A DNA stretch of 64,000 bases from an uncultured Bacilli bacterium (GCA_947591215.1 CANQCZ010000002.1:6819-70818), one strand, 5' to 3'; shown: positions 14,104-58,689, counted from the first letter of the stretch. Notes: generated by a model from the sequence alone, not told the origin. Program-made: numbers and translations.

Positions 14104-14141
14104 AAAAAATCCTCTATTATATCAATAGAGGACTTTCTAAA

Positions 14142-15159: not shown

Positions 15160-15160
15160 T

Positions 15161-42651: not shown

Positions 42652-43170
42652 TTATTTTAAAAATAGTAAAGACAAAATAACACCCACGGTGATTCCAACC
42701 ACATCTGCCATAAGTCCAACTTTCAGAGCATGTTTCCATTTGGTGATTCCGACGCTTGTAAAATACAACGATAGAACATAAATCGTCGTGTCTGTGCTCC
42801 CTTGAATCGTCGAAGCCATTTTGCAAGTAAAAGAATCGGCACCGGCAGCACATATATTATCTAAAACTGCAATTGAAGCCGAACCGGATATTGGTCTAAA
42901 CAAAACCATCGGTGTAATATCTGCAAACATATTTATCGCGGGGAATAAAGTTTTTAAACTAGCTTTTATATCTGTAATCAATCCCGAAGCTTCTAACATC
43001 GTTACCGCAAGTAACATTGCCATTACCGACGGAAAAACTTCCACAAATAATCCCAATCCTTCTTTGGTACCATTCAAAAATGAAGCATAAGCATTTTTCT
43101 TTTTAATTGCTGCATATATGATAGTTAATATCACCAGCAACGGAATAAATACTAAAGATACTTTATTCAT
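42652..43170 (-). CDS. spmB: Spore maturation protein B
   Basis: 172 aa membrane protein with a SpmB-like pattern (nucleoside-transporter/Gate-like half); partner spmA is found 4.9 kb away. Confidence 0.7.
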   Translation of the reverse strand: MNKVSLVFIPLLVILTIIYAAIKKKNAYASFLNGTKEGLGLFVEVFPSVMAMLLAVTMLEASGLITDIKASLKTLFPAINMFADITPMVLFRPISGSASIAVLDNICAAGADSFTCKMASTIQGSTDTTIYVLSLYFTSVGITKWKHALKVGLMADVVGITVGVILSLLFLK

Positions 43171-43535
43171 TTACGATCATTTCTTTCATCTTTAAATAAT
43201 ATGAACGAATTGATTAACATATTATAAATTTAGATTCTTAATTTTCTATCAGTTCTACTTCAATTTAAAAAGAAAAAAATATGAGGTCAAAACTACAATT
43301 CACTCATGATTAAATGTCTTTATTTAATTAAATGAATATCTATATTTGAAGGCGTTTTTTATGGTATAAAACTACTTCAATTACCCTATTTAAAAGCTTT
43401 TAGCAAACAGATAAATTTCATCACATTTTTAGTAGAAAAATTTCTAATCATTTCGCTTGTGTTATTTTTATCCATATGATATATATTTCATGCAAAATGA
43501 ATTTATTTGTTTTGAAATTAGAAAGGAAAACTTGT

Positions 43536-46500
43536 ATGACAAAAGGCAAAAAAACTTCATTCTTAGTAGGATTTATTTCACTATGTTTACTGATAGTCAG
43601 TTTTAGCGTTTTCAAAAACAATAATTTTTCTAACCTTTTATCTAATAAAATACTCAATAATCAGATTCAAGATACTACAAAAAATCGTGATAACAACAAT
43701 CACTTCTTTTCTAATTATGATAGCGAAATAATAATCGATGAAGTAGAAAGAAGTCATACACCGCAAGTATTCGGAGAATTAAGCGAGGATCAATATCCTT
43801 CTATTTATCATCCGCAAACTTTCAGCGATTTAACAGGTGACACACCTGATACCGTTGAAGCATTAAATGCGACCAGTTTAGGTAAGATTCGTATCGAAAA
43901 CGAAAAAATCTTAGAAGAAACAGATGCACAAATCGCAAGTGGCACCTTAGGAAAGCATCGTTCTGCCGATGGTCAATTTTATGGCAAAATCGATGACGAT
44001 GCTCCACGTATTATTAAAAAAGTTACTATAAATCACATGGTTTCTTCACGCCACTCCTTGAGCGTTTTTGCTCCGGCGGGAGAAATTCTTACCGTAACCA
44101 TCGATCAAAGCATTATCGACAAAACCGACAAGGATCATCGATTAATTATCGTGGTCGGTTTTCCTTATCGCGAAAATACAGTTCACGCAGTGCAAAAGAA
44201 ATTTTTCCAAAAATTGCAATCTGCCCAAAATCGGATGCCTATCCTTTTCAAAGAATTCACAATTACTGAACCTGTTACGAAAATCGGATCACCATTAGGC
44301 GGCATGGTTTTCTTAAAAGATATCCCTGCGACCATCGATCAAAACTTTGACATCACTATCTCAGGTGGGGTCGATAATCCTAGTTATCAATATGGTATTT
44401 CTACAACTGAAGATTGGAAGTTAATTTTGGAAGCACCTTCACCTTACGCTTGGATTGAAACTCCTTACGTTTATTTTTTGATGCCGAAACTTTACATTAA
44501 AAACATTGAAGAATTAGATAGCAGTTTGACATTTTGGTATAAAGCTTCCATGCTTTCTAATTATGCGATGGGTCTTGATACATTAAAAGGAAAAATAAGA
44601 CCGGTAATCATGATGTATGATAGTTACATCCCTAGTGGCAGTGCTTTAGCATATCCCGGTATTTTTGCCGTAATTTGTCCTTCAAGTTGGGCAATAACAA
44701 CTCTCGATTATGAAACCACGTTTACAACCGCTAATTGTTGGGGTGTCATTCACGAAATGAATCACAATTTCCAATATCCCCGTGTAGCCGGTCTTGGAAA
44801 TCCATGGACTGTCGGCAGTAATTATATGGAAATTACCAACAATGTGATGAACATTCTAGCATATGTAACTTATACCGACATCGCTTCTAGCCGTAGTGAT
44901 AGCGCCGCGTCAGCTAGCGGTGGCGGAAGTGCCGTCGATCCTTATTACAATCTTTCCAATCTTAAATCTATTTCACAACAAAAGAGTACTTTTGAAGAAT
45001 TCGGTGAAAGCAAACTTTACGCTTACGTAGATTTAATCCACAGTTTTGGAATTGACAAATTTATTCACTTTCTTCGTCAAATCGGCGGAGCTGAAGAATC
45101 CGAATATTTAACCCCTGATCAAGTGGTTTCAGCTAGCGGAGCTAGTCATAACTACACGACAACCGAAGATGGTTTTGCAACTTTTGCAAGTCAATTCTTT
45201 CAATATGATATGACTGATTATTTTCAAGATTTATGGCATTTCAATTTAAGCCAAGCCACGATTGAAAAAATTAAAGATCTCAATTATCCAAAATATTTCT
45301 CTTTGCAAAACGTTTACGCTCTTGGAGAAAAGAATATTGAAACCGGAAGACCTTATATCTTTAATCGTAATCAAAGTGAAGTAACTTTAAATCTTGAAGA
45401 AAAAACTTTGACTTCCGCTGATCGTTTTGAAGTGGCCTCAATCACAAATATCAAAAACGGAACATTGATAAAAAATTCAGAAGAACTTTACACATTTGCC
45501 CCTAATGATAATTACGATGATATAACTTTCGATGTGACATATAATGCCTGGTTTGATGGTGATGAAACCACATATCAAAAAACATTAAAAGTTCAGTTAA
45601 AATTTGCTGTCAATAAAACAGTTCAAGCGATTGAATATAGTGCTTCTAATGGTTATACCGTTCAACAAGCGATTGAACAATTTGCTAATGAAGAACATAA
45701 AGTTAAAACCTACACCACTACCTCTCTTTCAACTAGTGTGACTGATGGAATTAATCTCACTTATCTTTCCACTAAAGTAATATTTGATTATAAAAAGAAA
45801 TTGACATTTATGGTTTATGGCGATGATGCCACTTATATCAAAATCAATGGTCAAGAAGCATATTGCAATCAATATATTGACGCTTATTGGGATTATAATA
45901 AGGCTAAATCTTTAACGGAAAATAAAATTGAAATTGATGTAAATCCAAACGAACCGATTCTTATCGAAGCCTATTGTTTAAATACCGGAGGGCCTGGATA
46001 TATTCACGTTCAATATAGTGAAGATAAAGTTAATTACTCCTCGATTCTTTCATCTGACTGTTTAAATCCTAACGTCAACCAACAAGTAATCGATGACTAC
46101 TTAAAAGATAATTCAAAACCTTTCTTTTATGACACACAATATGACTTAGAAAGCAATTTGTTGAAGCGGATGTATCCAAATAATTTGGATTTAACCAAAA
46201 AAATTCAAGAAGTAAAATGCATTGATAGTCAAGGAAGAAACATTCCCGGTCAAAATAGTGATCATTTCATTAAGAATTTAACCGACAATAACACCGGCAC
46301 TTGGTTTACTCCAAATCCATCATATAATTATTCGCATTATTATATTTTCGATTTTGGTGAAAGAGTTACTATTTCTAACGTAAATATCGAATTTTACGAT
46401 TCTAGTTATGCTCCAAGCGGATATAAATATCATATAGCCGATAATATCGATACTACAAATATCAGTCAAAGTATCGCGAACGCCTCAAATGTTTTTAATC

Positions 46501-48053
46501 GAGACAACTCCGCTTATGGTACTAAATTTTCCGATCAATTTGAATTGACTAATGGAAGATATTTGATTATCGAAATAACCGGTTCTAGTGCCTACAATCG
46601 ATCAAGTATTCGCGAGATATCGGTTTCTCAATCATTAAATACCGAAGATGTCAACATCTATGGTTCGTCTAGTGAAGAATTCGAATATTACAATGAGTGG
46701 AATCCCGTCAAAGGAAACTTTATAAACGGACTTGCTCAAAAAACTCAAAACGGAGAAATAACCTTTATTCTTGAAGGTAAAGATTTATTGTTATATTTTT
46801 CTCAAGAATCAGCGAGTAACGATGAATCATATGTTTTAATCGATGGTCAAAAATATTCAATAACTATAGATAATACTTCATCTCCTTCCGTATTTATCGC
46901 TGGGCTAGAAGATAAGCAACATACAGTTACTATCGTCGCTAAAAACTTAGTCTTTGATGCGGCATTAACTACCGGACAAATTTTAGAGCAAGACGAACTT
47001 CAAGAACTAAACTTATCGATTAGTGATTTCGTTTATAACGGACAACAATGGAAACCGGTTATTAGTTATAATGGAGTTATATTACAAGAAGGAGTCGACT
47101 ATATTTTAAAATCGTGCGAAAACAATGTTTCTGTCGGTAGTGCTTCTTTCTCGATTGAAGGTAAAGGATTTTATAAAGGAGTATTAGATTCAACCTTTGA
47201 AATATCGCCACTTGAATTAAATAGTGAAACTGTTTCTCTAACAATCGATGATAACAACGTTTTCTCCGGAACTGCTTTAACACCAACTATTGAAATTACA
47301 ACTAAAATCGATAATCAAGAAGTAATTTTAAAAAATGGTATCGATTATGATGTAACCTTTAACAATAATGTCTCCGCGGGCAAAGCTTCTTACACTATTC
47401 AATTTAAAGGTAACTTCCAAGGCACCATAACTTCCTACTTCAATATTTCTCAAAAAGAATTAAGTTCTAATGATGTAACCATTTCTGTTTTGGATGAAAC
47501 CAGTTATACTGGTCAAGAAATCACTCCAAACATCGAGATCAAAATTAACGATCAATCTGTTACCCTTATAAACGGAGTTGATTATGATATCGTATTTTCA
47601 AATAATATCGCTGCCGGCGAAGCTTCATTCACAATCAATTTTAAGGGCAATTATCGTGGTATAATCAATTCCACTTTCACGATTGCTCCAAAAGAAGTGC
47701 AATTAGATAGCAACCTTTTGTCCATCGAAGATCAAACTTATACCGGTGAAGCAATAAATCCCGAGTTGGAAATTTATATAACTGAAAATGATAGAAGAAC
47801 TGATTTAGTCAATGGTGTAGATTACGATGTCACATATTCTAATAACATCGAAACCGGTAAAGCTACAATAACGATCCAATTCAAAGGAAACTATACTGGT
47901 ACAAAAACTCTCGAATTTAATATTGTAAATTCAAATAATAATGTTGAAACAATATTTTTAATTAGCGGAGTTATTGCAATCATCGGCATAATCTCTATCT
48001 TATCAGCGATATTTTTTGTAACCAAAAAGAAAAAATCAATGTCTAAAAATTAA
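43536..48053 (+). CDS. Large membrane-anchored M60-like (enhancin-like) zinc metallopeptidase with a discoidin (F5/8 type C, CBM32-like) domain and four tandem ~75 aa Ig-like repeats; putative glycoprotein/mucin-targeting protease
   Basis: N-terminal signal-anchor; HEMNHNFQ (HExxH followed by downstream Glu, as in M60/enhancin HE[IL]GH.FQ). Discoidin-like block (NPSYNYSHYYIFDFGERVTISNVNIEFYD). Four repeats share the motif NGVDYD[VI]x[FY]xNN[IV]xxGxAxxTIxFKGN[YF]xG. C-terminal TM helix plus KKKK stop-transfer. Confidence 0.6.
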   Translation: MTKGKKTSFLVGFISLCLLIVSFSVFKNNNFSNLLSNKILNNQIQDTTKNRDNNNHFFSNYDSEIIIDEVERSHTPQVFGELSEDQYPSIYHPQTFSDLTGDTPDTVEALNATSLGKIRIENEKILEETDAQIASGTLGKHRSADGQFYGKIDDDAPRIIKKVTINHMVSSRHSLSVFAPAGEILTVTIDQSIIDKTDKDHRLIIVVGFPYRENTVHAVQKKFFQKLQSAQNRMPILFKEFTITEPVTKIGSPLGGMVFLKDIPATIDQNFDITISGGVDNPSYQYGISTTEDWKLILEAPSPYAWIETPYVYFLMPKLYIKNIEELDSSLTFWYKASMLSNYAMGLDTLKGKIRPVIMMYDSYIPSGSALAYPGIFAVICPSSWAITTLDYETTFTTANCWGVIHEMNHNFQYPRVAGLGNPWTVGSNYMEITNNVMNILAYVTYTDIASSRSDSAASASGGGSAVDPYYNLSNLKSISQQKSTFEEFGESKLYAYVDLIHSFGIDKFIHFLRQIGGAEESEYLTPDQVVSASGASHNYTTTEDGFATFASQFFQYDMTDYFQDLWHFNLSQATIEKIKDLNYPKYFSLQNVYALGEKNIETGRPYIFNRNQSEVTLNLEEKTLTSADRFEVASITNIKNGTLIKNSEELYTFAPNDNYDDITFDVTYNAWFDGDETTYQKTLKVQLKFAVNKTVQAIEYSASNGYTVQQAIEQFANEEHKVKTYTTTSLSTSVTDGINLTYLSTKVIFDYKKKLTFMVYGDDATYIKINGQEAYCNQYIDAYWDYNKAKSLTENKIEIDVNPNEPILIEAYCLNTGGPGYIHVQYSEDKVNYSSILSSDCLNPNVNQQVIDDYLKDNSKPFFYDTQYDLESNLLKRMYPNNLDLTKKIQEVKCIDSQGRNIPGQNSDHFIKNLTDNNTGTWFTPNPSYNYSHYYIFDFGERVTISNVNIEFYDSSYAPSGYKYHIADNIDTTNISQSIANASNVFNRDNSAYGTKFSDQFELTNGRYLIIEITGSSAYNRSSIREISVSQSLNTEDVNIYGSSSEEFEYYNEWNPVKGNFINGLAQKTQNGEITFILEGKDLLLYFSQESASNDESYVLIDGQKYSITIDNTSSPSVFIAGLEDKQHTVTIVAKNLVFDAALTTGQILEQDELQELNLSISDFVYNGQQWKPVISYNGVILQEGVDYILKSCENNVSVGSASFSIEGKGFYKGVLDSTFEISPLELNSETVSLTIDDNNVFSGTALTPTIEITTKIDNQEVILKNGIDYDVTFNNNVSAGKASYTIQFKGNFQGTITSYFNISQKELSSNDVTISVLDETSYTGQEITPNIEIKINDQSVTLINGVDYDIVFSNNIAAGEASFTINFKGNYRGIINSTFTIAPKEVQLDSNLLSIEDQTYTGEAINPELEIYITENDRRTDLVNGVDYDVTYSNNIETGKATITIQFKGNYTGTKTLEFNIVNSNNNVETIFLISGVIAIIGIISILSAIFFVTKKKKSMSKN

Positions 48054-48068
48054 AATTTATATGTAGTT

Positions 48069-48656
48069 TTATCTTTTGTTTTTCAGCGCCTTCTTACGAT
48101 AATAACGATCTAATAAAAGTCCTGAAACACAAGATAAAAGCGTGCCGATAATACCATATATGATGAAATCCGTGGGATTTGAAGCACCATAACTATGTCT
48201 TATCGCCATCACTGTAGTAGGTATCAATGTAACTCCGGCAGTGTTTAAAATCAAGAATGTGACCATTTCATCGGAAGCTGTCTTTTCATCTTCCGGTGAA
48301 ATCATCTTTAATCTTTTCATTGCTTTTAAACCGCTTGGAGTAGCTGCGAAACCAAGGCCAAACATATTTGCGGCAATATTGGAAGAAATATATTTTCTTG
48401 CTTCCTCATCTTTTAAATTCGGCATGATAAGATTTAATAGCGGATTTAAAGCTTTAGCAACTTTATCGATAAGACCACTATCATACATGATCATCATAAT
48501 TCCATTCCAAAAACAAGCAGAAAAAACCAATGTACAAACAAGATTCAAGCCCTTTTCCGGCAATGCTAAAATCGAGTTTGCCAAAGCATCAAATCTACCT
48601 GTAACTAATCCATAAATAATTGAAATAACAATAATTCCAATCCAAATTTTATTCAT
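48069..48656 (-). CDS. spmA: Spore maturation protein A
   Basis: 195 aa membrane protein with a SpmA-like pattern; AGGTGAT RBS, which lies inside the left island direct repeat. Confidence 0.7.
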   Translation of the reverse strand: MNKIWIGIIVISIIYGLVTGRFDALANSILALPEKGLNLVCTLVFSACFWNGIMMIMYDSGLIDKVAKALNPLLNLIMPNLKDEEARKYISSNIAANMFGLGFAATPSGLKAMKRLKMISPEDEKTASDEMVTFLILNTAGVTLIPTTVMAIRHSYGASNPTDFIIYGIIGTLLSCVSGLLLDRYYRKKALKNKR

Positions 48657-48660
48657 TTGA

Positions 48661-48729
48661 TATCACCTATATAAATAAATGAATAAAACGATAATGTAAG
48701 AACTATCTAGTTATTAACTTTTTCTTTTT
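48661..48729. repeat. Left copy of a ~69 bp imperfect direct repeat bracketing the accessory island
   Basis: TATCACCTATATAAATAAATGAATAAAACGATAATGTAAGAACTATCTAGTTATTAACTTTTTCTTTTT differs at 3 positions from the copy at 61447-61515. Confidence 0.8.
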
Positions 48730-48808
48730 AAATGGTCAAAACAAAAAATGCTTAAAAAAGTGCAACTATCTATATAGAGATAGCTACACTCTTGCAAGTT
48801 TGTGTTAA

Positions 48809-49117
48809 TTATAAATTATATTTAATATAAATATTAACTACTTCTATAAGTATATTTAAATAATCTCTATCATACTCGTTAAAGTCAAAATTTAAAGCAT
48901 CATATTCAGCCAAATTTGATAGAAAAATTGAGAATTCTTTTATTTCATTTTGAACATCTTCTCTTTTTGCTTTTTTACCTTCTAGAAGCATCGTACACAA
49001 ATCAAAATCAACATGTTCTACATATAATATATTAACAGTAGGATCTTCTTTATACATCGATGGTATTCGCATTTTTTTAAATTTTTTTACAAGTAATTTT
49101 TCATCTTCTGTAAGCAT
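48809..49117 (-). CDS. Hypothetical protein; candidate (orphan) immunity protein
   Basis: 102 aa acidic cytoplasmic protein downstream of the RHS toxin tip; no recognisable motif. Confidence 0.3.
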   Translation of the reverse strand: MLTEDEKLLVKKFKKMRIPSMYKEDPTVNILYVEHVDFDLCTMLLEGKKAKREDVQNEIKEFSIFLSNLAEYDALNFDFNEYDRDYLNILIEVVNIYIKYNL

Positions 49118-49170
49118 TTGTATTACCTCCTATTTTTAATAGTCAAAAAATAGTATAAATTAGACTCCTA

Positions 49171-49365
49171 CTAGTTTCTATTAATTTTTTTCCTTTTCTT
49201 TTTTTCCTTTTCTTCTTTATAACATAATTTTACGATTGGATATATTATTATAATCATTAATGCTGATTCTAACCAGCTATACTTATTAGGTGGTGAAGGA
49301 TCATTATAATATCCGTATATAGTTGAAATTATATATATGATAATTATTTGTATTATTTCAATCAC
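49171..49365 (-). CDS. Small hydrophobic membrane protein; candidate immunity to a membrane-acting toxin
   Basis: 64 aa with two Ile-rich TM segments and a Lys-rich tail; lies in the RHS tip/immunity cluster. Confidence 0.25.
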   Translation of the reverse strand: MIEIIQIIIIYIISTIYGYYNDPSPPNKYSWLESALMIIIIYPIVKLCYKEEKEKKKRKKINRN

Positions 49366-49430
49366 AATTTTTTCCCCATTTTTAAAACCATCTTTTGTAT
49401 AATTGTTATAATTGCTAGTTGAATTATTTC

Positions 49431-49733
49431 TTATAATAAAAAGTCAATTATACTTATAAAATAGACTAAATCATCATATTTTTTAAACAATTCCTCATCA
49501 AATGTTTTGTTTTTTGTGGCTGAGAAATATAAACTGTCTGCTAGATTCTTTAATTCTTTTAGTTTTTCATCACTTAACTCAAAATCAAAGATATATGCAG
49601 GTTCTTTATCAAATCCCATTTTATATCCTGCATAATCAATAGTTGCAGTATCAACTATCCTATCATAATAAGATGGCAACCATTCTTTAACACCTTTTAA
49701 AAAATTTTCAAACAATCTTTTTTCTAATCTCAT
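49431..49733 (-). CDS. Hypothetical protein; candidate immunity protein
   Basis: 100 aa; context only. Confidence 0.3.
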   Translation of the reverse strand: MRLEKRLFENFLKGVKEWLPSYYDRIVDTATIDYAGYKMGFDKEPAYIFDFELSDEKLKELKNLADSLYFSATKNKTFDEELFKKYDDLVYFISIIDFLL

Positions 49734-49903
49734 TTATTAGACCCCCTTAAATAAAAAATGCCATATCCATCTATAATCGCTTGTTAATACTAATTTGTAA
49801 ATACCATTATTAAATTTGCCTTTAATTACAGATGACCCTTTAGCAGTAAACGAATAAAATAATCTACCATTTTCGCCAATGTCTTTGCTCATCTTTCCAT
49901 ATT

Positions 49904-50563
49904 TTATGATATTTTTTGAGTTAAAACAGAGTCAAAATATGGCCTACTATCATTTTTGTTAGAATAATAACTTTCTGGAAATTCTGCACTTCCTATATTC
50001 TTATAGGCTTGTATTCTAGGTGTGTTGTATTTGTACCATGCCCCACAAACAATACTACCAACAGTTGCAATAGTACCAGTAATTGATGCATAAGTATTAT
50101 ATGCGGACGAGTTGCCTCCAAATAATCCATCTTCCATGAAATTATAATCAAAAGCTAAATCTCCAACTTCTGCAACACCATTAATTGTAGTTAGCGCCCC
50201 TGCTCCTATTGTAATACCAGCAACTAATAACATAGGCCATGTAGCAACTCCACTAGCAACGACTAAAGCACCAGCAATAATAGCACCAATACCAGTAACT
50301 AAATATCCTACTCCTTGCCAGAAATAACTCCATTCCCAATCGTGTCCACTAGGATCTGCGTACATTATAGGATTATTATAACAATAACAATATAAATTTA
50401 AGCCATTAATAGATTTAGGGTCTAAATAATCAATTGAATCAGGTGTTAGCCATCTACATAGTTCTGGTGAATAATACCTAGAGTTGCAATAGAAGAGTCC
50501 TGTCTCAAATGATTTATATCGAGTATCCTCAACAAAGATTAACCTATAACAATTTAATTTCAT
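49904..50563 (-). CDS. Orphan RHS C-terminal fragment: end of the RHS core plus a glycine-zipper membrane toxin-like tip
   Basis: The RHS core terminal consensus is readable (RYYSPELCRWLTPDSIDYLDPKSINGLNLYCYCYNNPIMYADPSGH). It is followed by a Gly/Ala/Ile-rich hydrophobic segment (GIGAIIAGALVVASGVATWPMLLVAGITIGAGALTT). The ORF begins inside the core, so there is no N-terminal YD-repeat shell. Confidence 0.65.
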   Translation of the reverse strand: MKLNCYRLIFVEDTRYKSFETGLFYCNSRYYSPELCRWLTPDSIDYLDPKSINGLNLYCYCYNNPIMYADPSGHDWEWSYFWQGVGYLVTGIGAIIAGALVVASGVATWPMLLVAGITIGAGALTTINGVAEVGDLAFDYNFMEDGLFGGNSSAYNTYASITGTIATVGSIVCGAWYKYNTPRIQAYKNIGSAEFPESYYSNKNDSRPYFDSVLTQKIS

Positions 50564-50624
50564 TGTAAAATTAATTATTTAAAATTTTTTTCAAACTTAC
50601 ATTATTTTCTTGTGAAAATATTTA

Positions 50625-50876
50625 TTATTTTTTATTTAATATTTTTTCACATTGTGGACATAATCCATCTTCATTTAATGGTAAAGGCTTAAAATATTTT
50701 TTTATAAAATACACTTCCAATGATCCATCTACAGTTGTGATTTTTTCAGGCATGTTTGGCTTATATCCTTTTTCATGACAACATATACATTCGTTAATCC
50801 ATTTTTTAAATTTTGGAAAAGCATTGATATATTCTTCGCCTTCATTTCCGTTTCTTTTCATTACAATTTTCCCCAT
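50625..50876 (-). CDS. Small zinc-ribbon-like protein (CxxC...CxxC)
   Basis: 83 aa; CICCHEKG and CPQCEK Cys pairs. Confidence 0.3.
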   Translation of the reverse strand: MGKIVMKRNGNEGEEYINAFPKFKKWINECICCHEKGYKPNMPEKITTVDGSLEVYFIKKYFKPLPLNEDGLCPQCEKILNKK

Positions 50877-51129
50877 TTCTCTAAAATTTTTTTTAATAAA
50901 TTAATTAACTTTTTTAAATTATCATGAGTACTATAAGGATATTTATCAATTTCTTTATGCAATCTTTGCCATAAATTTCAATTTTTTATTGTCTAATGGT
51001 CTTATTTTTTTCTTCATTATAAAAATAATTGATTTTATTAGTAACAGCATTATTTGAATTAATCCAATCTTCCTCAAGAATAATATCACCATTAAAATAA
51101 TAATTTACATAAATTATTAGAATTTTCAA

Positions 51130-51400
51130 CAATCTTATATATTGCTATATGATCATCAAATTCATAAATATCATTAATAAAACATGGTTCTACTTTAATT
51201 AATCCTTCATTAGCTAATTCTTTAATTATCTTTTGTATTGTTCTATCACTAACTGCTAGTTTAGATGATAAATAATTAATTTTAATAGAAGTACTACTAT
51301 TATCAATGATATAATTTAGAACTATTTCTTTACGTTCACTAGGCGTAGATTTACGATAATGATAAACTGTTGTTCTTAAGGCTTATGATATACTTCAGGA
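51130..51400 (-). pseudogene. Frameshifted/disrupted remnant of a winged-HTH (DeoR/HTH_11-like) regulator
   Basis: The minus-strand frame reads ...YRKSTPSERKEIVLNYIIDNSSTSIKINYLSSKLAVSDRTIQKIIKELANEGLIKVEP... (classic wHTH) but has no start codon and stops upstream; no ORF of 60 aa or more was called here. Confidence 0.35.
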
Positions 51401-51456
51401 ATTACTATTCCATACTTACGATAGTTTTCGTTTTCTGATGTGTAGTACACACAACT

Positions 51457-53226
51457 CTAATCTTTGTCCACAACATTAAATAAACCATTTTTGCCAATCA
51501 AAACAACATTTTCAGAATTAGGTCTTCTTTTTCTTGAAACTTGTTGAACATATAAAAAGGTCGGCATTTGAAATGCTGTTCCTGATACAATACATTCACC
51601 TGGAGCCAATATAGTAATAAAATCCAATGACGCATCATCCATATATGCAACCGCCTTTCTGATTTTCGAAATGTCAGATGGATTAACTAGTTTATGTATA
51701 AAATAATTGTGTAGTTGAGAAATAATAGTTTGAGATATATCACTTGGTCTTTGACTAGCAATCATTAAAAATAACCCAAATTTTCTTCCTTCTTTTATTA
51801 CCTTTTCAAAAACATCTAAAACAGATTCGTGACTCAAAATATTTTTATTATCTTCATATAGAATATTATGAGCTTCATCTACCACAATGTTTATAATCTG
51901 TTTTATTTCTCCTTCTTCTTTTTTCTCAACCAATCTATTAAATATATTATTTGTTATTATAGATGGTACAATTTCTTTCATGTCTCTATTAACATTTCCA
52001 AGTTGCACTATACAAACGTTTTTGTCATCAAAAATATCCTTAAATTCTTCTGTGAAATCAAAAATTTTGCGGAAGTCATTAATTAATTTTCTAGCTCTAG
52101 CTATTAACGGCATCATAAAATCAAGATTTACGCCATTCTCATTTTCGTGTGCAACCGCAAAATATAACTCAAATAAAAATCTGTCCAAACTATCTTCAGG
52201 AAGAGTTATATCAATATTGTCTAACGCTTTTTCAAATTCACAACTTCCACAATAAAAAATTGTTCCGTTGCTATTTTTATAATGAATTTTAACTTGCTGT
52301 GAATGATAAAAAAATCCATCTAATCCAGTAAAATATTCATTTAGATATACCCTCATAGATTGAAATAAAGATTTTTTTGCATTTGTGATTATCAATTTTA
52401 AATAATTTAAATAATATTTTTTCCCGCGTCTTTCTTCTTCATCTTTTTTCATTTCTTTATAGGCATTTTTAACTACTGGGGCTTGAGTTTTTTGTGAAGC
52501 ATTCATTAGAACTATAAAATCATCTTCGCTTAAAGAATTCAAATTTAAAGGTATTTTCCTCAATGATGACTTTTTGCTTGTAGATAAAGGATAAATCGTT
52601 TTTTCAGTTTCTTCACAAATTGCTGATTTACCATACTCATTGTTTAAATCTAAAATCAAATATTTACCATTTTTGGTTTTATATTTATTCAACAAATTAG
52701 TATACTCCTGCAAAATTTTGGTTAAAGTATTTGATTTACCACTACCTGTATTTCCAAAAACACCAATATGAGACGGTATTAACTTATTAATTTCGATATT
52801 TATACCTTTATTTTCATCAAACAAATCATTTCCAATAAATATTGTGTTAGACGAACCTGAATTATAAATGTTTTCATAGTCATCTTTATCTAACAATTCT
52901 ATATTTGCAGACACAATTGGCAATATTCTAAGACCTTGTATGAATTTATTTTTATCCAAATAACCCTTCACTTGCAAATCCAAGAAATGAGATTGAACAT
53001 TACTACCAATCTCTTCGCTATATTCACCAACCACTTGGCAAATAATTGTATCTATTCCAATCTTGGTTTTGACAAATCCATTTATTTTAGGAGCAGATTC
53101 CCTCTTTCCATTTTCAACCAAATATGGAGGTAATAAATTAAAAAGCTTTGCTCTAACCTGAAGTCCTTTAACTTCAACTATTCTTCCAACGATTTTTCCC
53201 ATAACTCTTTCACCATATTTGAACAT
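51457..53226 (-). CDS. herA: HerA-family (DUF87, FtsK/HerA-type) ATPase, partner of SIR2 in a SIR2-HerA defense pair
   Basis: N-terminal HAS-barrel-like start (GKIVGRIVEVKGLQV), Walker A (GNTGSGKSNT), Walker B (IVVDEAHN), ASQRPSDI motif; overlaps the upstream SIR2 gene. Confidence 0.75.
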   Translation of the reverse strand: MFKYGERVMGKIVGRIVEVKGLQVRAKLFNLLPPYLVENGKRESAPKINGFVKTKIGIDTIICQVVGEYSEEIGSNVQSHFLDLQVKGYLDKNKFIQGLRILPIVSANIELLDKDDYENIYNSGSSNTIFIGNDLFDENKGINIEINKLIPSHIGVFGNTGSGKSNTLTKILQEYTNLLNKYKTKNGKYLILDLNNEYGKSAICEETEKTIYPLSTSKKSSLRKIPLNLNSLSEDDFIVLMNASQKTQAPVVKNAYKEMKKDEEERRGKKYYLNYLKLIITNAKKSLFQSMRVYLNEYFTGLDGFFYHSQQVKIHYKNSNGTIFYCGSCEFEKALDNIDITLPEDSLDRFLFELYFAVAHENENGVNLDFMMPLIARARKLINDFRKIFDFTEEFKDIFDDKNVCIVQLGNVNRDMKEIVPSIITNNIFNRLVEKKEEGEIKQIINIVVDEAHNILYEDNKNILSHESVLDVFEKVIKEGRKFGLFLMIASQRPSDISQTIISQLHNYFIHKLVNPSDISKIRKAVAYMDDASLDFITILAPGECIVSGTAFQMPTFLYVQQVSRKRRPNSENVVLIGKNGLFNVVDKD

Positions 53227-54053
53227 TCCAATGTAGTATCAATGCCTTCTTCGTTTTCTATAATTGTAATATTATCTACCATATTTTCGGGAATATAATC
53301 TTCTTTTTTAAATTTATACCAATAAATTGTTAATCCTGATGAAATACAATCTTTTAAAATTTTGTTAATATGTTCATCATTCCCTGAATATCCAATAACA
53401 ATAAGTACAGAATTTTCTCTAGACAATTTTTCTTTCATTTTAAATAATATCTCAAATCTATTTGCCATTATCATTGAGTCATACTTATTTATTCCTGGTA
53501 AAATAGGATTATTAATATCTCCATGCAATTTAGAAACTAAATACGTTGGCACAAATTTATTAAATAAGAAGTTATATCCAACCATATAAAAGAACTTATC
53601 GTGGTTTTTTATATTAGAAGATGAAATTGAATTACTTAAATATCCAAGATTTTCTAATACCTTTTCAACAATCATATCATAATTAAGTGTGTATATATTC
53701 ACTTGCTTAGTAGTTTTTGTTCTATTTTCAGATTCCTCTACTAACTTATTTATAATAAAAAAAAGTGATTCAATATTCTTAATTGATTTGTGATTGAAAT
53801 CTATTGTTTTAGAAAAATCATTAAACTCTTCCACAAACAAATCAAAAACTTGTTTTTTATCCTTGTCTGTTTTTAATTTATCTAGACCTTCTTCGAAATT
53901 TTGGAAAGGTTCTTTTAATAAATTCTTTAATAATTCTAATGATTTACTAAATTTATTAATTTGTGGAAAAGCAGCCCCATTAACCCCCGCACCAAATAAA
54001 AAATTAATGTGTGATGATGATAAGATTTTAGAATCAAATTTTACTGTATTCAT
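53178..54053 (-). CDS. SIR2-like (SIR2_2/DUF4020-type) NADase domain protein
   Basis: FLFGAGVNGAAFP (GAGxS-like Rossmann), YTLNYDMIVEKVLE (TxNYD-like), KLHGDINNP and VIGYSGNDEHI motifs are characteristic of defense-associated SIR2 domains; GAGGTG RBS. Confidence 0.65.
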   Translation of the reverse strand: MNTVKFDSKILSSSHINFLFGAGVNGAAFPQINKFSKSLELLKNLLKEPFQNFEEGLDKLKTDKDKKQVFDLFVEEFNDFSKTIDFNHKSIKNIESLFFIINKLVEESENRTKTTKQVNIYTLNYDMIVEKVLENLGYLSNSISSSNIKNHDKFFYMVGYNFLFNKFVPTYLVSKLHGDINNPILPGINKYDSMIMANRFEILFKMKEKLSRENSVLIVIGYSGNDEHINKILKDCISSGLTIYWYKFKKEDYIPENMVDNITIIENEEGIDTTLECSNMVKELWEKSLEE

Positions 54054-54074
54054 ACTATTACACCTCGAACTTCT

Positions 54075-56036
54075 TTAATAATTTGTAATCAACACTTCTC
54101 TAGTTACAGTTTCTTTATCCTTTATTTGGTAATTAGAATTGCTATAACTTGCTTTTATATAAATCAAATTAAAATGATTTTTATCAATCCATTGCTTTAA
54201 TTTTTCATGAACTTTACCTTTATGTTCGATGACATTAGACAACGCAAAAGGTATCCCTTCTTCATTTAATTTTTCTAAGAATTTTAATAACTTTCTTTCT
54301 TCTTTAATTGTCCATCCATTATTTTCGTTATATGAAGCTATTCCTAAATAATATGGTGGATCACAATAGAAAAACGGATTGTCTAAATTAGAATAATCTA
54401 TTTTATTAAAATCTTTATTTTGAAATAAAATAGTTTTATTTTTAATTTTTAGTACGAAATCTTTAATATTTTTTCTAGATGATGAATTGAAATCCCTCTT
54501 TCCTACAGGCATATTAAATTCACCGTTAGAGTTAAATCTAATTTGATTGTTAAATGAGAAAATTATTAATGTTAACAAAAGAAAATCTTTTTCTTCGCTT
54601 TCTCTTTTTAAAGAATTATATTCTTCTCTTAATTGAGTATACTTTTCCTTATTGTAACTGCCTACACCAGAATCACTTTCACAATTGTAATATTCATATC
54701 CATTTTCATAAGTGTTAGACAATTCATACTTTGCAATGTTTTTTTCGATTTTTTTAATAATTACCGAATAATCGTACTTGTAAAATAATTTTATTAATCT
54801 AGTAATCTCTTTTTGTTTATCGTTATAAACAATTATATCACATTCTACATTAGCACCAACATTAAATCCACCACCAAATAGGTCAATAAATGAATTGAAA
54901 TGTGTTGGAAATTTTTCTAATAATTGAGGCAATAATTTATATTTTCCACCAGTATAGTTTAAAGGTGATTTAGCATAACCATTTATTTTTTCTTCACTTT
55001 CATATTCTGTAGTTTGTTTACCTACAAAACATAGAAATAATCTTTCCTTATGATCTTCTATATCTGTTTTACCAGTATTAAATTGATTGAATTCTTTTTC
55101 AAACACTTTAACTTTGCCTTTTGCTAATAATATTCTCATGATGTCATCATCACTAATTTTAGCTTGTGATCTGCCAGCACCTTTAGTACCCATATTATTA
55201 TATGAAACTAAAATATATCTAGCATTGATATTATTAATTAAATCTTCAAATTGTTTAGGTGCTGTATGTGTACAATATTTACTTTTCAAATTACTTCTAT
55301 CCATTTTCTTAGCAACACCAAATACTTCTGGTTTTTCCCAAGAAGCAACATTTTCAAGCAAATGATAAGCATCACAATATTGTCGCGAATTATATGGTGG
55401 ATCAATATACACTAAGTCTGCAACAACTCTTCTAACTAATGAATTTGCATCTTCTCTGTAAATAATATTGTTTAAATTAACTTCTCTTGCTGGTAAGTCT
55501 AGTTCTTCTAAAACAAGGTCTTTATTTAAATCACCATTCATTCTATAAGCATCATAATGCCCTACAGTGTTTGCAATTCTATCCATTGCATATAAGAGAG
55601 ATGTTATTAAAATTGCTTTTTCTCTTTCATTTAATTCTCCATTATTAAATTGGTTTTCAATATTTTCTCTAATATATCCTATTTTTTTACAATTAAATTC
55701 ACTAAAAAAAGTATTAGAGAAATTATTTGAAAAATAATTGTCTTCTAATATTTCCAACTCATTATATCTTGTAATTAAACCACTAATTTTGCCTTCATCA
55801 ATCTCTTGACTACCAAACCACGCAATATAAGAAAGGTAATTAGACATTAAAATATCGTTAACCATTATTGTTGTATATTGATTATTAAAATTCCAAGCAA
55901 CATTACCTGTTCCACCAAACAAATCTAAAATGATATTTATATTTTCACATTCCTTATTTACTACCTCTGTAATAAATGATAATAACTTAGCTTTACTTCC
56001 TAAATATCTTCTGTTTTTTATATTGAATTTACTCAT
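54075..56036 (-). CDS. Tandem two-domain Dam-family (D12 class) N6-adenine DNA methyltransferase, Type IIS-style
   Basis: Two complete MTase modules in one polypeptide: module 1 RYLGSKAKLL / DLFGGTGNV / DPPY; module 2 NYTGGKYKLLPQL / DLFGGGFNVG / DPPY. Confidence 0.8.
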   Translation of the reverse strand: MSKFNIKNRRYLGSKAKLLSFITEVVNKECENINIILDLFGGTGNVAWNFNNQYTTIMVNDILMSNYLSYIAWFGSQEIDEGKISGLITRYNELEILEDNYFSNNFSNTFFSEFNCKKIGYIRENIENQFNNGELNEREKAILITSLLYAMDRIANTVGHYDAYRMNGDLNKDLVLEELDLPAREVNLNNIIYREDANSLVRRVVADLVYIDPPYNSRQYCDAYHLLENVASWEKPEVFGVAKKMDRSNLKSKYCTHTAPKQFEDLINNINARYILVSYNNMGTKGAGRSQAKISDDDIMRILLAKGKVKVFEKEFNQFNTGKTDIEDHKERLFLCFVGKQTTEYESEEKINGYAKSPLNYTGGKYKLLPQLLEKFPTHFNSFIDLFGGGFNVGANVECDIIVYNDKQKEITRLIKLFYKYDYSVIIKKIEKNIAKYELSNTYENGYEYYNCESDSGVGSYNKEKYTQLREEYNSLKRESEEKDFLLLTLIIFSFNNQIRFNSNGEFNMPVGKRDFNSSSRKNIKDFVLKIKNKTILFQNKDFNKIDYSNLDNPFFYCDPPYYLGIASYNENNGWTIKEERKLLKFLEKLNEEGIPFALSNVIEHKGKVHEKLKQWIDKNHFNLIYIKASYSNSNYQIKDKETVTREVLITNY

Positions 56037-56083
56037 TTAATTTTTCATTTCCTTTTTAGGCATCTCATGCATCTAATTATAAC

Positions 56084-56114
56084 AAAAAAAGCCTTATATT
56101 ACAACAATAAGGCT
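56084..56114 (-). terminator. Rho-independent terminator downstream of the putative restriction endonuclease gene
   Basis: GCCTTAT-loop-ATAAGGC hairpin with a T7 run on the minus strand. Confidence 0.45.
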
Positions 56115-56216
56115 AATTTAATTTTGGCCTCACTTTTGTTTTGAAACCCCATGATTTTGAAGAGTTTTTTTAAAACCCCACGCAACCCCACGCGTTTTCG
56201 AGGAGGACCTTAATTT

Positions 56217-58187: not shown

Positions 58188-58689
58188 ATTATCTTCACCA
58201 CTACTTTCTACTTTTTTTGATAAATGATACTAAAATTATATTAAAGTTTTCTTAAAAAATATATAAATTAACATAAATATATTTCTAATTAAATCTTATT
58301 TTATAAAAAAGAAAAGGCAAGCATAATCTATCGAATAAACTTACATTATTTTGTTTGTAAAAGTAATTTGCTATTATTTTGTGTTCTAAATTTTATAAGA
58401 TATATTTTTTCTATTCTTTTGTTATCTAAATTTCTTAACAATTACTTCTATTAACCATTAAACACCAAATACTAGTCCTAATAATACAAACATTGTAACA
58501 ATTCCAATGATTGCATGTTTAAATGTCATTCCTTTAGGATTGTTTCTAAACGCAGCAGAAATCGACATTAACAAACAATGAAAACAATATTTAATGAACT
58601 TCCATATCGTTTATACCTTCTAAAAATATTGATAACGAAAACAGCAATGCCCCCCTAGAAAGCAAATAACTCCAGTTTTTACGGAAGGA

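What the first reader, a model, noticed from the sequence alone, without database searches (positions are those of the whole stretch)
42652..48656. spmA and spmB separated by an inserted 4.5 kb opposite-strand gene for a giant M60-like surface metalloprotease
spmA and spmB are normally adjacent and co-transcribed with dacB in Bacillus. Here a plus-strand 1506 aa gene lies between them, convergent with spmA, and only 15 nt separate their 3' ends. The protein has a signal-anchor, an HEMNH zinc motif in an M60/enhancin-like context, a discoidin/CBM32-like carbohydrate-binding module, four tandem ~75 aa Ig-like repeats, and a C-terminal TM anchor with a KKKK tail. That architecture is typical of mucin/glycoprotein-degrading proteases in gut-associated bacteria. 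Its placement inside a sporulation operon means spmB must have acquired its own promoter (43171-43475), with possible antisense interference. This gene and the neighbouring island make the spm locus a two-event insertion hotspot.
Basis: partly seen in the sequence, partly recalled or inferred. Interest (0 to 1): 0.6.

Follow-up and report, generated by a model that had tools for sequence, protein, structure and literature searches.

The report
Mucinase-like gene inserted between spmA and spmB
In a rabbit-gut spore-forming bacterium, a 4.8 kb piece of DNA carrying one large cell-surface M60 glycoprotein-cutting protease gene sits, in the opposite direction, between two spore-maturation genes that normally overlap; this is a real strain-level gene insertion, but both the enzyme and the event are of known kinds.

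Summary
spmB (42652-43170, -) and spmA (48069-48656, -) are separated by a + strand gene (43536-48053, 1505 aa). Its stop lies 15 nt from the spmA stop.

**The protein.** It is a clear Peptidase_M60 member:
- Pfam match of 109.6 bits.
- A WGVIHEMNH motif plus Glu432.
- An AlphaFold model that matches ZmpB, ZmpC, IMPa, BT4244 and AM0627.
- M60-N, cadherin-like, PA14-like and CBM32 modules, then four Ig-like repeats of 70-81 aa.
- N- and C-terminal membrane segments, with no LPXTG.

**The insertion.**
- All 10 contigs shown that encode the identical SpmA carry the gene.
- All 3 contigs of a 99.5%-identical SpmA variant have spmA and spmB adjacent without it.
- In 12 more distant relatives spmA and spmB overlap by 4-14 nt, mostly right after dacB.
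- The indel (43247-48066) has no mobility gene and no terminal repeats.

**spmB promoter.** spmB probably had its own promoter before the insertion. A sigmaE-like motif lies 52 nt upstream of spmB in strains with M60, in strains without it, and in a sister species where spmA and spmB are unlinked.

**Other points.** No terminator separates the convergent genes, so antisense read-through is possible but untested. The "hotspot" idea is supported.

**Verdict.** A new member of a known kind, of moderate-to-low interest.

The parts
42652..43170 (-). spmB (172 aa), spore maturation protein B homologue, intact
   Evidence: One search lists the ORF. One search finds homologues named spore maturation protein B (70-72% identity). 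dN/dS is 0.014-0.022 against L002 and L039. It is followed by rluB, as in relatives.
43171..43246 (-). Region just upstream of spmB, shared with strains that lack M60. It contains the sigmaE-like motif ATA-N16-CATATTAT (43196-43222), which is part of the 8-nt-arm palindrome ATAATATG-N14-CATATTAT (43196-43225).
   Evidence: blastn homology with L002 ends at 43246. The motif is aligned and conserved in the window, L001, L002, L037 and L039. It is the only site of this pattern in the 64 kb window. The pattern was designed after seeing the sequence.
43247..48066 (.). Indel segment of 4820 nt, present in the window lineage. In L002 a 50-nt stretch takes its place. It carries only the M60 gene and that gene's upstream region.
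   Evidence: No terminal inverted repeats, target duplication or mobility gene. No plasmid or phage match.
43247..43535 (+). Non-coding leader and promoter region of the M60 gene. Extended -10-like TGgTATAAA lies near 43362-43370 and TGaTATATA near 43482-43490. The RBS AGAAAGGAAA is at 43520-43529.
   Evidence: Read directly from the sequence. No Rfam family. No significant fold. The promoter assignment is inference only.
43536..48053 (+). M60-family metallopeptidase gene, 1505 aa
43548..43619 (+). N-terminal hydrophobic segment (aa 5-28), either a signal peptide or a signal anchor. No canonical lipobox.
   Evidence: Hydropathy scan.
44016..44363 (+). M60-like N-terminal beta-sandwich domain (aa 161-276)
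   Evidence: Pfam PF17291 scores 21.3 bits, just under the cut-off of 23. The domain is pre-annotated in homologues. The family profile hits an SslE/AcfD homologue.
44364..45230 (+). Peptidase_M60 catalytic domain (aa 277-565). Includes WGVIHEMNH (44739-44765) and the third zinc-ligand Glu432 (44829-44831).
   Evidence: Pfam 109.6 bits. Motif located. W, H, E, H and E are invariant in 31 homologues. Foldseek hits to ZmpB, ZmpC, IMPa, BT4244 and AM0627.
45411..45596 (+). Cadherin_5-like beta-sandwich (aa 626-687)
   Evidence: Pfam E = 5.6e-5, below the cut-off. An all-beta domain in the model.
45699..46043 (+). PA14-like beta domain (approximately aa 722-836)
   Evidence: The family profile hits the PA14 structure 6qdi, E = 2.7e-7. 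PF07691 is annotated in homologues P0027 and P0028. The model shows a beta domain. Boundaries are approximate.
46275..46565 (+). F5/8 type C / CBM32-like carbohydrate-binding module (aa 914-1010)
   Evidence: Pfam PF00754 E = 9e-6 and PF22633 E = 3e-5. The family profile against solved CBM32 structures gives E down to 1.8e-16. Foldseek hits ZmpB CBM32, fucolectin and AlyQ CBM32.
47004..47930 (+). Four tandem repeats of 70-81 aa (aa 1157-1226, 1227-1307, 1308-1386, 1387-1465). They are predicted Ig-like beta-sandwiches and probably form a stalk.
   Evidence: One search gives coordinates and 37-51% pairwise identity. One search gives an all-beta model with pLDDT about 90. One search gives hits to S-layer, invasin, cadherin and Ig folds. 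Big_3 match is weak.
47937..48050 (+). C-terminal transmembrane helix plus the basic tail KKKKSMSKN. There is no LPXTG.
   Evidence: A TM segment plus basic tail is conserved in the closest homologues (consensus).
48054..48068 (.). 15-nt spacer between the convergent stop codons. No terminator on either strand.
48069..48656 (-). spmA (195 aa), spore maturation protein A homologue, intact
   Evidence: dN/dS is 0.011-0.028.
48657..48748 (-). Conserved region upstream of spmA, shared with L001 and L002 and partly with L003 and L004. It presumably holds spmA's own promoter and its RBS AGGTGAT.
48749..61492 (.). Strain-variable island between o280 and spmA. It holds an RHS remnant, orphan toxin/immunity-like cassettes, SIR2-HerA, and a D12 methyltransferase with an AlwI endonuclease. 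This is the second insertion flanking spmA.
   Evidence: It is absent from the sister species, where o280 lies 205 nt from spmA.

Best explanation
**What it is.** The + strand gene encodes a cell-surface zinc metallopeptidase of the M60 (M60-like/enhancin) family. By homology it is most likely an O-glycan-dependent peptidase (O-glycopeptidase or mucinase).

**How the protein probably works.**
- It is exported through an N-terminal signal or anchor.
- It is held on the membrane by a C-terminal TM helix with a basic tail.
- It is raised above the cell wall on four Ig-like repeats.
- Its CBM32-like and PA14-like modules bind glycans.
- It cuts the peptide backbone next to O-glycosylated Ser/Thr, using the WxxxHExxH...E site.

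**How it got there.** The gene and about 290 nt of its own upstream DNA (43247-48066) are a lineage-specific accessory segment. This segment landed, inverted, in the spmA-spmB spacer of one rabbit-gut Erysipelotrichales-like species lineage. It has since diverged in place into two allele groups about 3.5% apart.

**State of the operon.** In this clade the ancestral overlapping spmA/spmB pair had already been uncoupled. spmB runs from its own promoter, which looks like a mother-cell sigma factor promoter, just upstream (43171-43246). spmA runs from sequence within about 90 nt upstream of it. Both spm genes therefore stay intact and under strong purifying selection despite the insertion.

**Shown:** family membership, motifs, predicted fold, presence/absence polymorphism, ancestral overlap, purifying selection.

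**Inferred:** substrate, surface topology, promoters, direction of the event (gain in this lineage rather than loss in L002), and the absence of harmful antisense effects.
For: **Family**
- Pfam PF13402 scores 109.6 bits against a cut-off of 25.8.
- WGVIHEMNH lies at aa 402-410, with Glu432 21 residues after the second His. These fit the WXXXHEXXH motif (PMC13580078) and HEXXHX(8,28)E (PMC3267712).
- Those residues are invariant in 31 homologues.
- The AF2 model (pLDDT 85.8, pTM 0.73) matches the solved M60 enzymes ZmpB, ZmpC, IMPa, BT4244 and AM0627 with probability 1.00 and E from 1e-9 to 8e-15.
- The family profile matches CBM32 structures with E = 1.8e-16.
- The C-terminal repeats model as Ig-like beta-sandwiches followed by a TM helix.

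**Insertion**
- L002, L035, L036 and L037 (SpmA 99.5%, flanks 94-95% DNA identity) lack the 4820-nt segment.
- All 10 contigs shown that encode the identical SpmA carry it.
- Twelve relatives have spmA/spmB overlapping by 4-14 nt, and 11 of the 12 have dacB directly upstream.
- The closest outside homologue (54% identity) sits at an unrelated locus in a genome whose spmA/spmB overlap.

**Function retained**
- dN/dS is 0.01-0.03 for spmA and spmB, and 0.15 for M60.

**Promoter older than the insert**
- ATA-N16-CATAnnnT lies at -52/-53 of spmB in M60-bearing strains, M60-less strains and the sister species with unlinked spmB. It is absent from the overlapping loci.
- sigmaE control of spmA-spmB, and the ATA / CATATAAT-type boxes, are documented in C. 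difficile (PMC3789822).
Against: - No biochemical data exist. Identity to any characterised M60 enzyme is only 10-14%, and single-sequence phmmer against PDB found nothing. The family is also found in environmental bacteria (PMC13580078), so the substrate need not be host mucin.
- The direction of the event is not proven. L002's 125-nt spacer could be the scar of a deletion.
- No mechanism for the insertion is visible: no repeats, no recombinase.
- Sigma-70-type promoter-like sites in the whole region (42400-49000) are no more frequent than in shuffled sequence (26 found against 32 expected).
- The sigmaE-like pattern was defined after looking at the sequence. Two matches in the window are not unusual by count alone (31 of 100 shuffles reach that).
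- Whether the N-terminal segment is cleaved could not be predicted here.
Confidence: 0.75

Rival explanations
1. The convergent layout without a terminator is itself regulatory. Read-through from sigmaE-driven spmA would silence the M60 gene in sporulating cells, or vegetative M60 transcription would run antisense into spmA and damp it. Expression of the surface protease and sporulation would then be mutually exclusive.
For: - Only 15 nt separate the two stop codons.
- No intrinsic terminator is found on either strand.
- No stable hairpin forms; fold z-scores are -0.84 and +0.78.
- Transcripts of each gene should therefore extend into the other.
- The arrangement is stably kept in two allele groups that differ by about 3.5%.
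Against: - There are no expression data.
- In L002 the same spmA 3' end runs straight on to spmB. The lack of a terminator is therefore inherited from an operon layout, not evolved for regulation.
- Rho-dependent termination cannot be excluded.
- Temporal separation of the two promoters would make interference negligible.
Confidence: 0.12
2. The gene is not an insertion in the window lineage. It was present in the common ancestor of the window and L002 lineages and was cleanly deleted in L002-type strains.
For: - L002-type strains have a 75-125 nt spacer instead of the overlap of 4-14 nt seen in distant relatives. Something had therefore already happened at this junction.
- The 50 nt unique to L002 (10591-10640) match neither end of the window segment.
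Against: - The sister species (L003/L039) has neither the gene nor linkage at this site.
- No other relative carries M60 at this site.
- A deletion that removes exactly one gene plus its promoter, and leaves a functional-looking spmB upstream region, is less parsimonious.
- Even if true, it would not change the fact that M60 entered a formerly contiguous spmA-spmB pair.
Confidence: 0.12
3. The protein acts mainly as an adhesin or a glycan-binding surface protein, or as a protease for non-mucin substrates such as dietary or microbial glycoproteins. It is not a mucinase.
For: - Two thirds of the protein consists of non-catalytic beta-sandwich modules: cadherin-like, PA14-like, CBM32 and Ig-like repeats.
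- Identity to characterised O-glycopeptidases is low, at 10-14%.
- The M60 family also occurs in environmental niches (PMC13580078).
Against: - The complete catalytic motif WxxxHExxH...E is invariant across 31 homologues.
- Divergent M60 enzymes tested so far have all turned out to be O-glycopeptidases (PMC13580078).
- The host bacterium and its relatives come from animal-gut metagenomes.
Confidence: 0.15

Closest known systems
Characterised Peptidase_M60 O-glycopeptidases: C. perfringens ZmpB and ZmpC, B. thetaiotaomicron BT4244, P. aeruginosa IMPa, A. muciniphila AM0627
   Same: - Same catalytic fold in the model.
- Same WxxxHExxH plus downstream Glu.
- An N-terminal Ig-like M60-N domain.
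- Appended CBM32 modules, as in ZmpB and BT4244 (PMC3267712).
- A host from an animal gut.
   Different: - Only 10-14% identical to these enzymes.
- Different accessory set: cadherin-like, PA14-like and one CBM32, plus four C-terminal Ig-like repeats.
- Anchored by a C-terminal TM helix with a basic tail, not by a lipobox, sortase signal or secretion.
- Activity is untested.
Uncharacterised 'M60 family metallopeptidase' proteins of gut Clostridiales and Bacilli MAGs (P0002-P0028)
   Same: - 32-58% identity in the alignment over the catalytic and middle regions (aa 60-1140).
- Same PF17291-PF13402-PF00754 order.
- P0002-P0007 share the C-terminal repeats and the TM anchor.
   Different: They sit at unrelated genomic loci. 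None lies between spmA and spmB.
dacB-spmA-spmB operon of Bacillus subtilis and the sigmaE-controlled spmA-spmB operon of C. difficile
   Same: - Orthologous spmA and spmB, with rluB downstream.
- Relatives keep dacB-spmA-spmB with overlapping spmA/spmB (PMC8745062, PMC3789822).
   Different: Here spmA is isolated on both sides: a 12.8 kb island lies upstream and the M60 gene downstream. spmB is a separate transcription unit. dacB lies outside the window.
skin-type intervening elements in sporulation genes (sigK skin, SPbeta in spsM, gin in gerE)
   Same: Foreign DNA lodged within a mother-cell sporulation locus. A true example exists in relative L020, where spmA is split by a 6.2 kb element carrying a serine recombinase.
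   Different: The window's insert is intergenic. It interrupts no reading frame, carries no recombinase and has no att-like repeats. Excision is therefore neither needed nor expected.

Membership tests
Peptidase M60 / M60-like (PF13402) | Significant match to the PF13402 profile above its gathering score | tested here: met
   109.6 bits against a cut-off of 25.8, E = 2.7e-31, covering profile positions 1-273 of 275.
Peptidase M60 / M60-like (PF13402) | WXXXHEXXH catalytic and GalNAc-binding helix motif | tested here: met
   WGVIHEMNH at aa 402-410. W, H, E and H are invariant in 31 homologues. The motif is defined in PMC13580078.
Peptidase M60 / M60-like (PF13402) | Third zinc-ligand glutamate: HEXXHX(8,28)E | tested here: met
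   Glu432 lies 21 residues after His410 in the sequence NYMEITNN. It is invariant in the alignment. The pattern comes from PMC3267712.
Peptidase M60 / M60-like (PF13402) | Fold of the catalytic domain resembles solved M60 enzymes | tested here: met
   The AF2 model has pLDDT 85.8. Foldseek against PDB returns 7js4, 6xsz, 5kdv, 5kd5, 5kdn and 7sci with probability 1.00, E from 8e-15 to 1e-9, and target TM-scores up to 0.62.
Peptidase M60 / M60-like (PF13402) | N-terminal Ig-like M60-like_N domain (PF17291) before the catalytic domain | tested here: inconclusive
   21.3 bits, just under the cut-off of 23. The domain is annotated in nearly all homologues. The profile hits an SslE/AcfD homologue at E = 6e-4.
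Peptidase M60 / M60-like (PF13402) | O-glycan-dependent cleavage N-terminal to a glycosylated Ser/Thr | not testable with these tools
   Requires recombinant enzyme and glycopeptide or mucin assays.
CBM32 / F5/8 type C carbohydrate-binding module | Sequence and fold match to CBM32 modules | tested here: met
   A single-sequence Pfam search is just below the cut-off (26.3 against 28.2 bits). The family profile matches solved CBM32 structures at E = 1.8e-16 to 1e-13. Foldseek hits ZmpB CBM32 and AlyQ CBM32. Sugar specificity was not tested.
SpmA/SpmB spore maturation proteins | Orthology to annotated SpmA and SpmB, and the conserved dacB-spmA-spmB(-rluB) neighbourhood in relatives | tested here: met
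   Named homologues at 70-72% identity. Weak Gate domain hits. Synteny in 12 loci. A role in spore core dehydration cannot be tested here.
Insertion sequence, transposon or integrative element | Transposase or recombinase gene, terminal inverted repeats or att-type direct repeats at the boundaries | tested here: not met
   M60 is the only credible gene in 43247-48066; one search also lists three 61-69-aa minus-strand ORFs that overlap it, which I take to be chance. There are no boundary repeats beyond AT-rich chance matches. No plasmid or phage similarity.
skin-type sporulation-gene intervening element | Interrupts a sporulation ORF and carries a large serine recombinase for excision | tested here: not met
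   The insert is intergenic and both spm ORFs are intact. It carries no recombinase. This contrasts with L020, where both features are present.

The most novel reading that the evidence does not exclude
The terminator-less, 15-nt tail-to-tail junction and the palindromic sigmaE/K-like box (43196-43225) might wire the surface glycoprotease into the sporulation programme. Two versions are possible.

- Mother-cell read-through from spmA silences M60 by antisense transcription.
- The palindromic box fires in both directions, so the protease is made in the mother cell and released or displayed when spores form. That would couple mucus-layer remodelling to spore release in the gut.
Probability: 0.07. 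Interest if true: 0.6.

Novelty: new member of a known kind. Interest (0 to 1): 0.3.

Why it matters
The finding gives a clean natural case of gene gain. An accessory, probably host-glycoprotein-targeting surface protease is present or absent between strains at about 94-95% DNA identity across the flanking genes of an uncultured rabbit-gut spore-former. That makes it a candidate strain-level colonisation factor.

It also bears on the spore-maturation genes themselves. spmA and spmB overlap and look translationally coupled in 12 of the more distant relatives. Yet they tolerate complete uncoupling, and even unlinking, while staying under strong purifying selection.

The enzyme class and this kind of genome rearrangement are both well known. 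The value is therefore descriptive and comparative rather than conceptual.

Tried and rejected
- **Single-sequence phmmer of the protein against PDB:** no hit. The link to solved M60 enzymes needed Pfam, a family profile and a predicted fold.
- **NCBIfam:** no model hit for M60, SpmA or SpmB.
- **A Pfam call with out-of-frame coordinates** failed and was repeated in frame.
- **Pfam on the repeats:** only a sub-threshold Big_3 match, and no MBG or other named repeat family. The Ig-like assignment rests on the model.
- **Sigma-70 promoter and intrinsic terminator scan of 42400-49000:** counts are no higher than in shuffled sequence, so no promoter claim is based on it.
- **RNA folds of both 3' ends and both 5' regions:** not different from shuffles.
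- **Rfam at relaxed threshold:** only a meaningless miRNA hit at E = 0.19.
- **Search for terminal inverted or direct repeats at the indel boundaries:** only AT-rich chance matches. I therefore rejected an IS, transposon or integrase mechanism.
- **Plasmid and phage collections:** no DNA similarity.
- **Assembly chimera:** rejected because of independent assemblies from many samples.
- **Literature search for an intervening element in spmA:** nothing found.
- **L036:** its apparent 75-nt spacer is ambiguous. The contig is short and low-coverage, and the start-codon call is doubtful, so it was not used beyond presence/absence.
- **SpmA neighbour-joining tree:** too short a protein to resolve whether uncoupling happened once or several times.

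Full report

Yes. The ORF table and the raw sequence show three genes.
- A 172-aa ORF lies at 42652-43170 on the minus strand.
- A 195-aa ORF lies at 48069-48656 on the minus strand.
- Between them, a plus-strand ORF opens at 43476.

The best start for the middle gene is the ATG at 43536. Its TAA ends at 48053, and the spmA stop codon occupies 48069-48071 on the other strand. Exactly 15 nt (48054-48068) therefore separate the two 3' ends.

The gene diverges from spmB across a 365-nt intergenic region (43171-43535).

It is one of only about five credible plus-strand genes among roughly 46 large ORFs in the window.

**2. Identity of the flanking genes.**

The 195-aa and 172-aa proteins have hundreds of homologues. 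A few are named 'spore maturation protein A' or 'B' by JGI or NCBI at 70-72% identity. Both give weak Pfam Gate (PF07670) hits, and Gate is the domain reported for SpmA/SpmB.

The genes downstream on the minus strand are rluB, an ECF S-component, spoIVA and hbs. spmA and spmB belong to the core sporulation gene set (PMC3533761). They form an operon with dacB in B. subtilis (PMC8745062) and a sigmaE-dependent spmA-spmB operon in C. difficile (PMC3789822).

**3. The large protein.**

*Catalytic domain.*
- Pfam gives Peptidase_M60 at 109.6 bits (cut-off 25.8), covering almost the whole profile.
- M60-like_N is just under its cut-off.
- The catalytic helix reads WGVIHEMNH (aa 402-410), and Glu432 follows 21 residues after the second His.
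- This satisfies the HEXXHX(8,28)E pattern that defined the family (PMC3267712).
- It also satisfies the WXXXHEXXH motif, which provides both the zinc ligands and the GalNAc contact in characterised O-glycopeptidases (PMC13580078).
- These residues are invariant in an alignment of 31 homologues.

*Predicted fold.*
- An AlphaFold2 model of aa 60-1140 built on that alignment has mean pLDDT 85.8 and pTM 0.73.
- Foldseek against PDB returns the solved M60 enzymes as top hits: ZmpB, ZmpC, IMPa, BT4244 and AM0627, plus an uncharacterised B. anthracis M60-like protein. All have probability 1.00 and E from 8e-15 to 1e-9. CBM32 and fucolectin modules follow in the list.

*Accessory modules.*
- A profile of the family matches solved CBM32 modules at E down to 1.8e-16.
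- It matches a PA14 domain at 2.7e-7, the B. anthracis M60-like protein at 3e-9, and an SslE/AcfD homologue at 6e-4.

*C-terminal region.*
- The last 350 residues contain four repeats of 70-81 aa, 37-51% identical to each other.
- They model confidently as tandem all-beta sandwiches followed by one long helix.
- They resemble S-layer, invasin, cadherin and Ig domains.
- Pfam sees only a sub-threshold Big_3 match.

*Membrane segments.*
- Hydropathy shows exactly two hydrophobic segments: aa 5-28 after KGKK, and aa 1468-1498 before KKKKSMSKN. There is no LPXTG.

The closest relatives are uncharacterised proteins of 1100-1500 aa from gut metagenomes with the same domain order. Two are named 'M60 family metallopeptidase' by NCBI. 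Identity to any characterised enzyme is only 10-14%, and a single-sequence search of PDB found nothing. Activity and substrate are therefore inferred, not shown.

**4. Is it an insertion?**

A scan of one genome per species with SpmA returned 20 loci. All are from MAGs, labelled uncultured Bacilli (rabbit 'Lapin' samples), Erysipelotrichales/Erysipelotrichaceae or Coprobacillus sp. CAG:826. tblastn mapping of the window's genes onto them gives a clear picture.

- **Distant relatives (55-71% SpmA identity, 12 loci).** The spmA stop overlaps the spmB start by 4-14 nt. In 11 of them dacB lies immediately upstream; in L015 the spacer is about 140 nt. This is the ancestral dacB-spmA-spmB layout.
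- **L001 (100% SpmA).** It has the M60 gene in the same place, at 96.3% identity.
- **L002 (99.5% SpmA, 98.8% SpmB, flanks 94-95% DNA identity).** spmA and spmB are adjacent with a 125-nt spacer and no M60 gene.
- **Indel boundaries.** blastn places the indel at window 43247-48066 (4820 nt), against 50 nt in L002.
- **Survey by exact protein look-up.** All 10 contigs shown that encode the identical SpmA carry the M60 gene between spmA and spmB. They fall into two allele groups about 3.5% apart. All 3 contigs encoding the L002-type SpmA lack it.
- **Nearest outside homologue (P0002, 54%).** It lies at an unrelated locus, in the same MAG as L006, where spmA and spmB overlap. Two further homologues also lie in unrelated contexts.

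The interrupted state is therefore derived and confined to one species-level lineage.

The segment contains one credible gene; one search also lists three 61-69-aa minus-strand ORFs overlapping it, which I take to be chance. It has no transposase or recombinase and no terminal inverted or direct repeats beyond chance. It has no similarity to any plasmid or phage record. The mechanism of arrival is unknown. Loss in L002 rather than gain in the window lineage cannot be strictly excluded.

**5. Consequences for the spm genes.**

Both genes are intact and strongly constrained.
- dN/dS is 0.011-0.028 for spmA and 0.014-0.022 for spmB, measured against L002 and the sister species.
- The M60 gene has dN/dS 0.15 against L001.

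The evidence gives a different timing.
- Only 43171-43246 is shared with M60-less strains.
- This stretch contains ATA-N16-CATATTAT ending 25 nt before the ATG.
- That resembles the mother-cell sigmaE/sigmaK promoter form: an ATA -35 box for sigmaE and a CATATAAT-type -10 box (PMC3789822).
- The same motif sits at -52/-53 of spmB in M60-bearing strains, in M60-less L002 and L037, and in the sister species. It is absent from all 12 overlapping loci.
- In the sister species (93% SpmA and SpmB), spmA and spmB are on different contigs. spmA is followed by a LysR gene, and spmB is preceded by unrelated genes.

So spmB was very probably already an independent transcription unit before M60 arrived.

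Two caveats apply. I wrote the pattern after seeing the sequence. Its count in the window (2, both at this palindromic site) is not unusual by itself. The argument rests on position and conservation.

Upstream of spmA, about 90 nt are conserved among strains, and a shorter core is conserved in L003 and L004. This is consistent with a promoter of spmA's own.

dacB is not in the window. In the sister species the order is dacB-csoR-copA-o280-spmA, and the window's right end shows copA-o280. dacB was therefore already separated from spmA.

**6. Antisense question.**

No intrinsic terminator is predicted between or near the convergent stop codons. Neither 3' region folds better than shuffled sequence. 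No Rfam family matches.

Overlapping convergent transcripts are therefore likely whenever both genes are on. The missing terminator after spmA is simply what an operon-internal junction looks like, as in L002. If M60 is vegetative and spmA is mother-cell-specific, the two would rarely be expressed together. This remains untested. I give a regulatory antisense role about 0.1.

**7. Hotspot claim.**

The claim is supported and can be broadened.

Upstream of spmA, the window carries a 12.8 kb island (48749-61492) that is absent from the sister species. Its content differs between the window, L001, L002, L026 and L027. It holds:
- an RHS remnant;
- an orphan RHS C-terminal cassette with small ORFs;
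- a SIR2-HerA pair;
- a double D12 methyltransferase with an AlwI-type endonuclease.

Downstream of spmA, every lineage with at least 74% SpmA identity has something different:
- M60 in the window lineage;
- a bare spacer in L002;
- an acyl-ACP-thioesterase-like gene on the same strand in L004;
- unrelated genes with no spmB in L003, L005, L008 and L012.

In L020, spmA itself is split at codon ~109 by a 6.2 kb element. This element carries AbiH, an HNH nuclease, an FRG protein and a large serine recombinase. It is flanked by an imperfect 15-nt direct repeat whose recombination would restore the reading frame. That is a skin-type intervening element. I found no paper mentioning one in spmA.

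**8. Comparison with what is known, and verdict.**

The enzyme is a divergent new member of the Peptidase_M60 O-glycopeptidase superfamily. Its modular make-up (M60-N, M60, CBM32) was described when the family was defined (PMC3267712). The cadherin-like and PA14-like modules, the Ig-like stalk and the C-terminal TM anchor are variations on a common theme for Firmicute surface enzymes.

The genomic event is an ordinary accessory-gene indel, unusual only in where it sits. It is not a mobile element and not a skin-type element.

I rate it a new member of a known kind, with interest 0.3. It is a well-documented natural presence/absence polymorphism of a likely host-glycoprotein protease. It also shows that the overlapping spmA/spmB pair can be uncoupled without loss of either gene.

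Noticed in passing
L020 10001-16778 (JAFLVA010000001.1, Erysipelotrichales HAN093): spmA is split at about codon 109 by a 6.2 kb element. The element encodes AbiH (10443-11588), an HNH nuclease (11616-12479), a large serine recombinase (13628-15325) and an FRG protein (15334-16410, -). It is flanked by an imperfect direct repeat, GCAACTCCTGCAGGA / GCGACACCAGCAGGA. Recombination between the repeats would restore spmA. It looks like a skin-type intervening element that carries defence genes. No paper was found that mentions such an element in spmA.
   Followed up: partly
L003/L038 and L039-L041 (GCA_947595215.1 and matching metagenome contigs): In the sister species (93% SpmA and SpmB identity), spmA and spmB lie on different contigs, and the breakpoint falls exactly between them. 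The order is dacB-csoR-copA-o280-spmA-LysR on one contig and MarR-Cthe_2159-spmB-rluB-ECF-spoIVA on the other. Both genes remain under strong purifying selection.
   Followed up: partly
L004 867-1589: A 240-aa acyl-ACP-thioesterase-like gene is inserted on the same strand between spmA and spmB in another relative (78% SpmA identity). L005, L008 and L012 each have different DNA downstream of spmA and no spmB nearby.
   Followed up: partly
window 48749-61492: A strain-variable island lies upstream of spmA. It holds:
- an RHS-repeat remnant (59183-60991);
- an orphan RHS C-terminal cassette (49904-50563), with small immunity-like ORFs (48809-49733, 50625-50876);
- a SIR2 (53178-54053) and HerA (51457-53226) defence pair;
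- a double D12 adenine methyltransferase (54075-56036);
- an AlwI-type endonuclease (56217-58187).

GC content is 0.23-0.28 across most of the island, against about 0.33 in the flanks. Content differs in every strain compared.
   Followed up: partly
window 43196-43225: A perfect 8-nt-arm palindrome, ATAATATG-N14-CATATTAT, lies just upstream of spmB. It reads as a sigmaE/K-like ATA-N16-CATATTAT box on both strands. It is also present in M60-less L002. It could be a bidirectional promoter or an operator.
   Followed up: partly
window 36114-37760 (-): A 548-aa ORF appears to fuse a PolyA_pol / CCA-adding-enzyme-type nucleotidyltransferase domain with a Peptidase_M19 (membrane dipeptidase) domain. 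The pre-computed Pfam annotation of the orthologues in L035 and L039 shows the same pair. This is an unusual combination.
   Followed up: no
window 43536-48053 against the rest of the window: The M60 gene is one of only about five credible plus-strand genes among about 46 large ORFs. GC skew is negative throughout, and weakest over the M60 gene. If the minus strand is the leading strand, this 4.5 kb gene is transcribed head-on to replication.
   Followed up: no
L021 9541-10212: The 54%-identical M60 homologue P0002 carries at least three nearly identical 240-nt (80-aa) C-terminal repeats. In the window's gene the four repeats have diverged to 37-51% identity. This suggests recent repeat expansion or homogenisation in that relative.
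   Followed up: no
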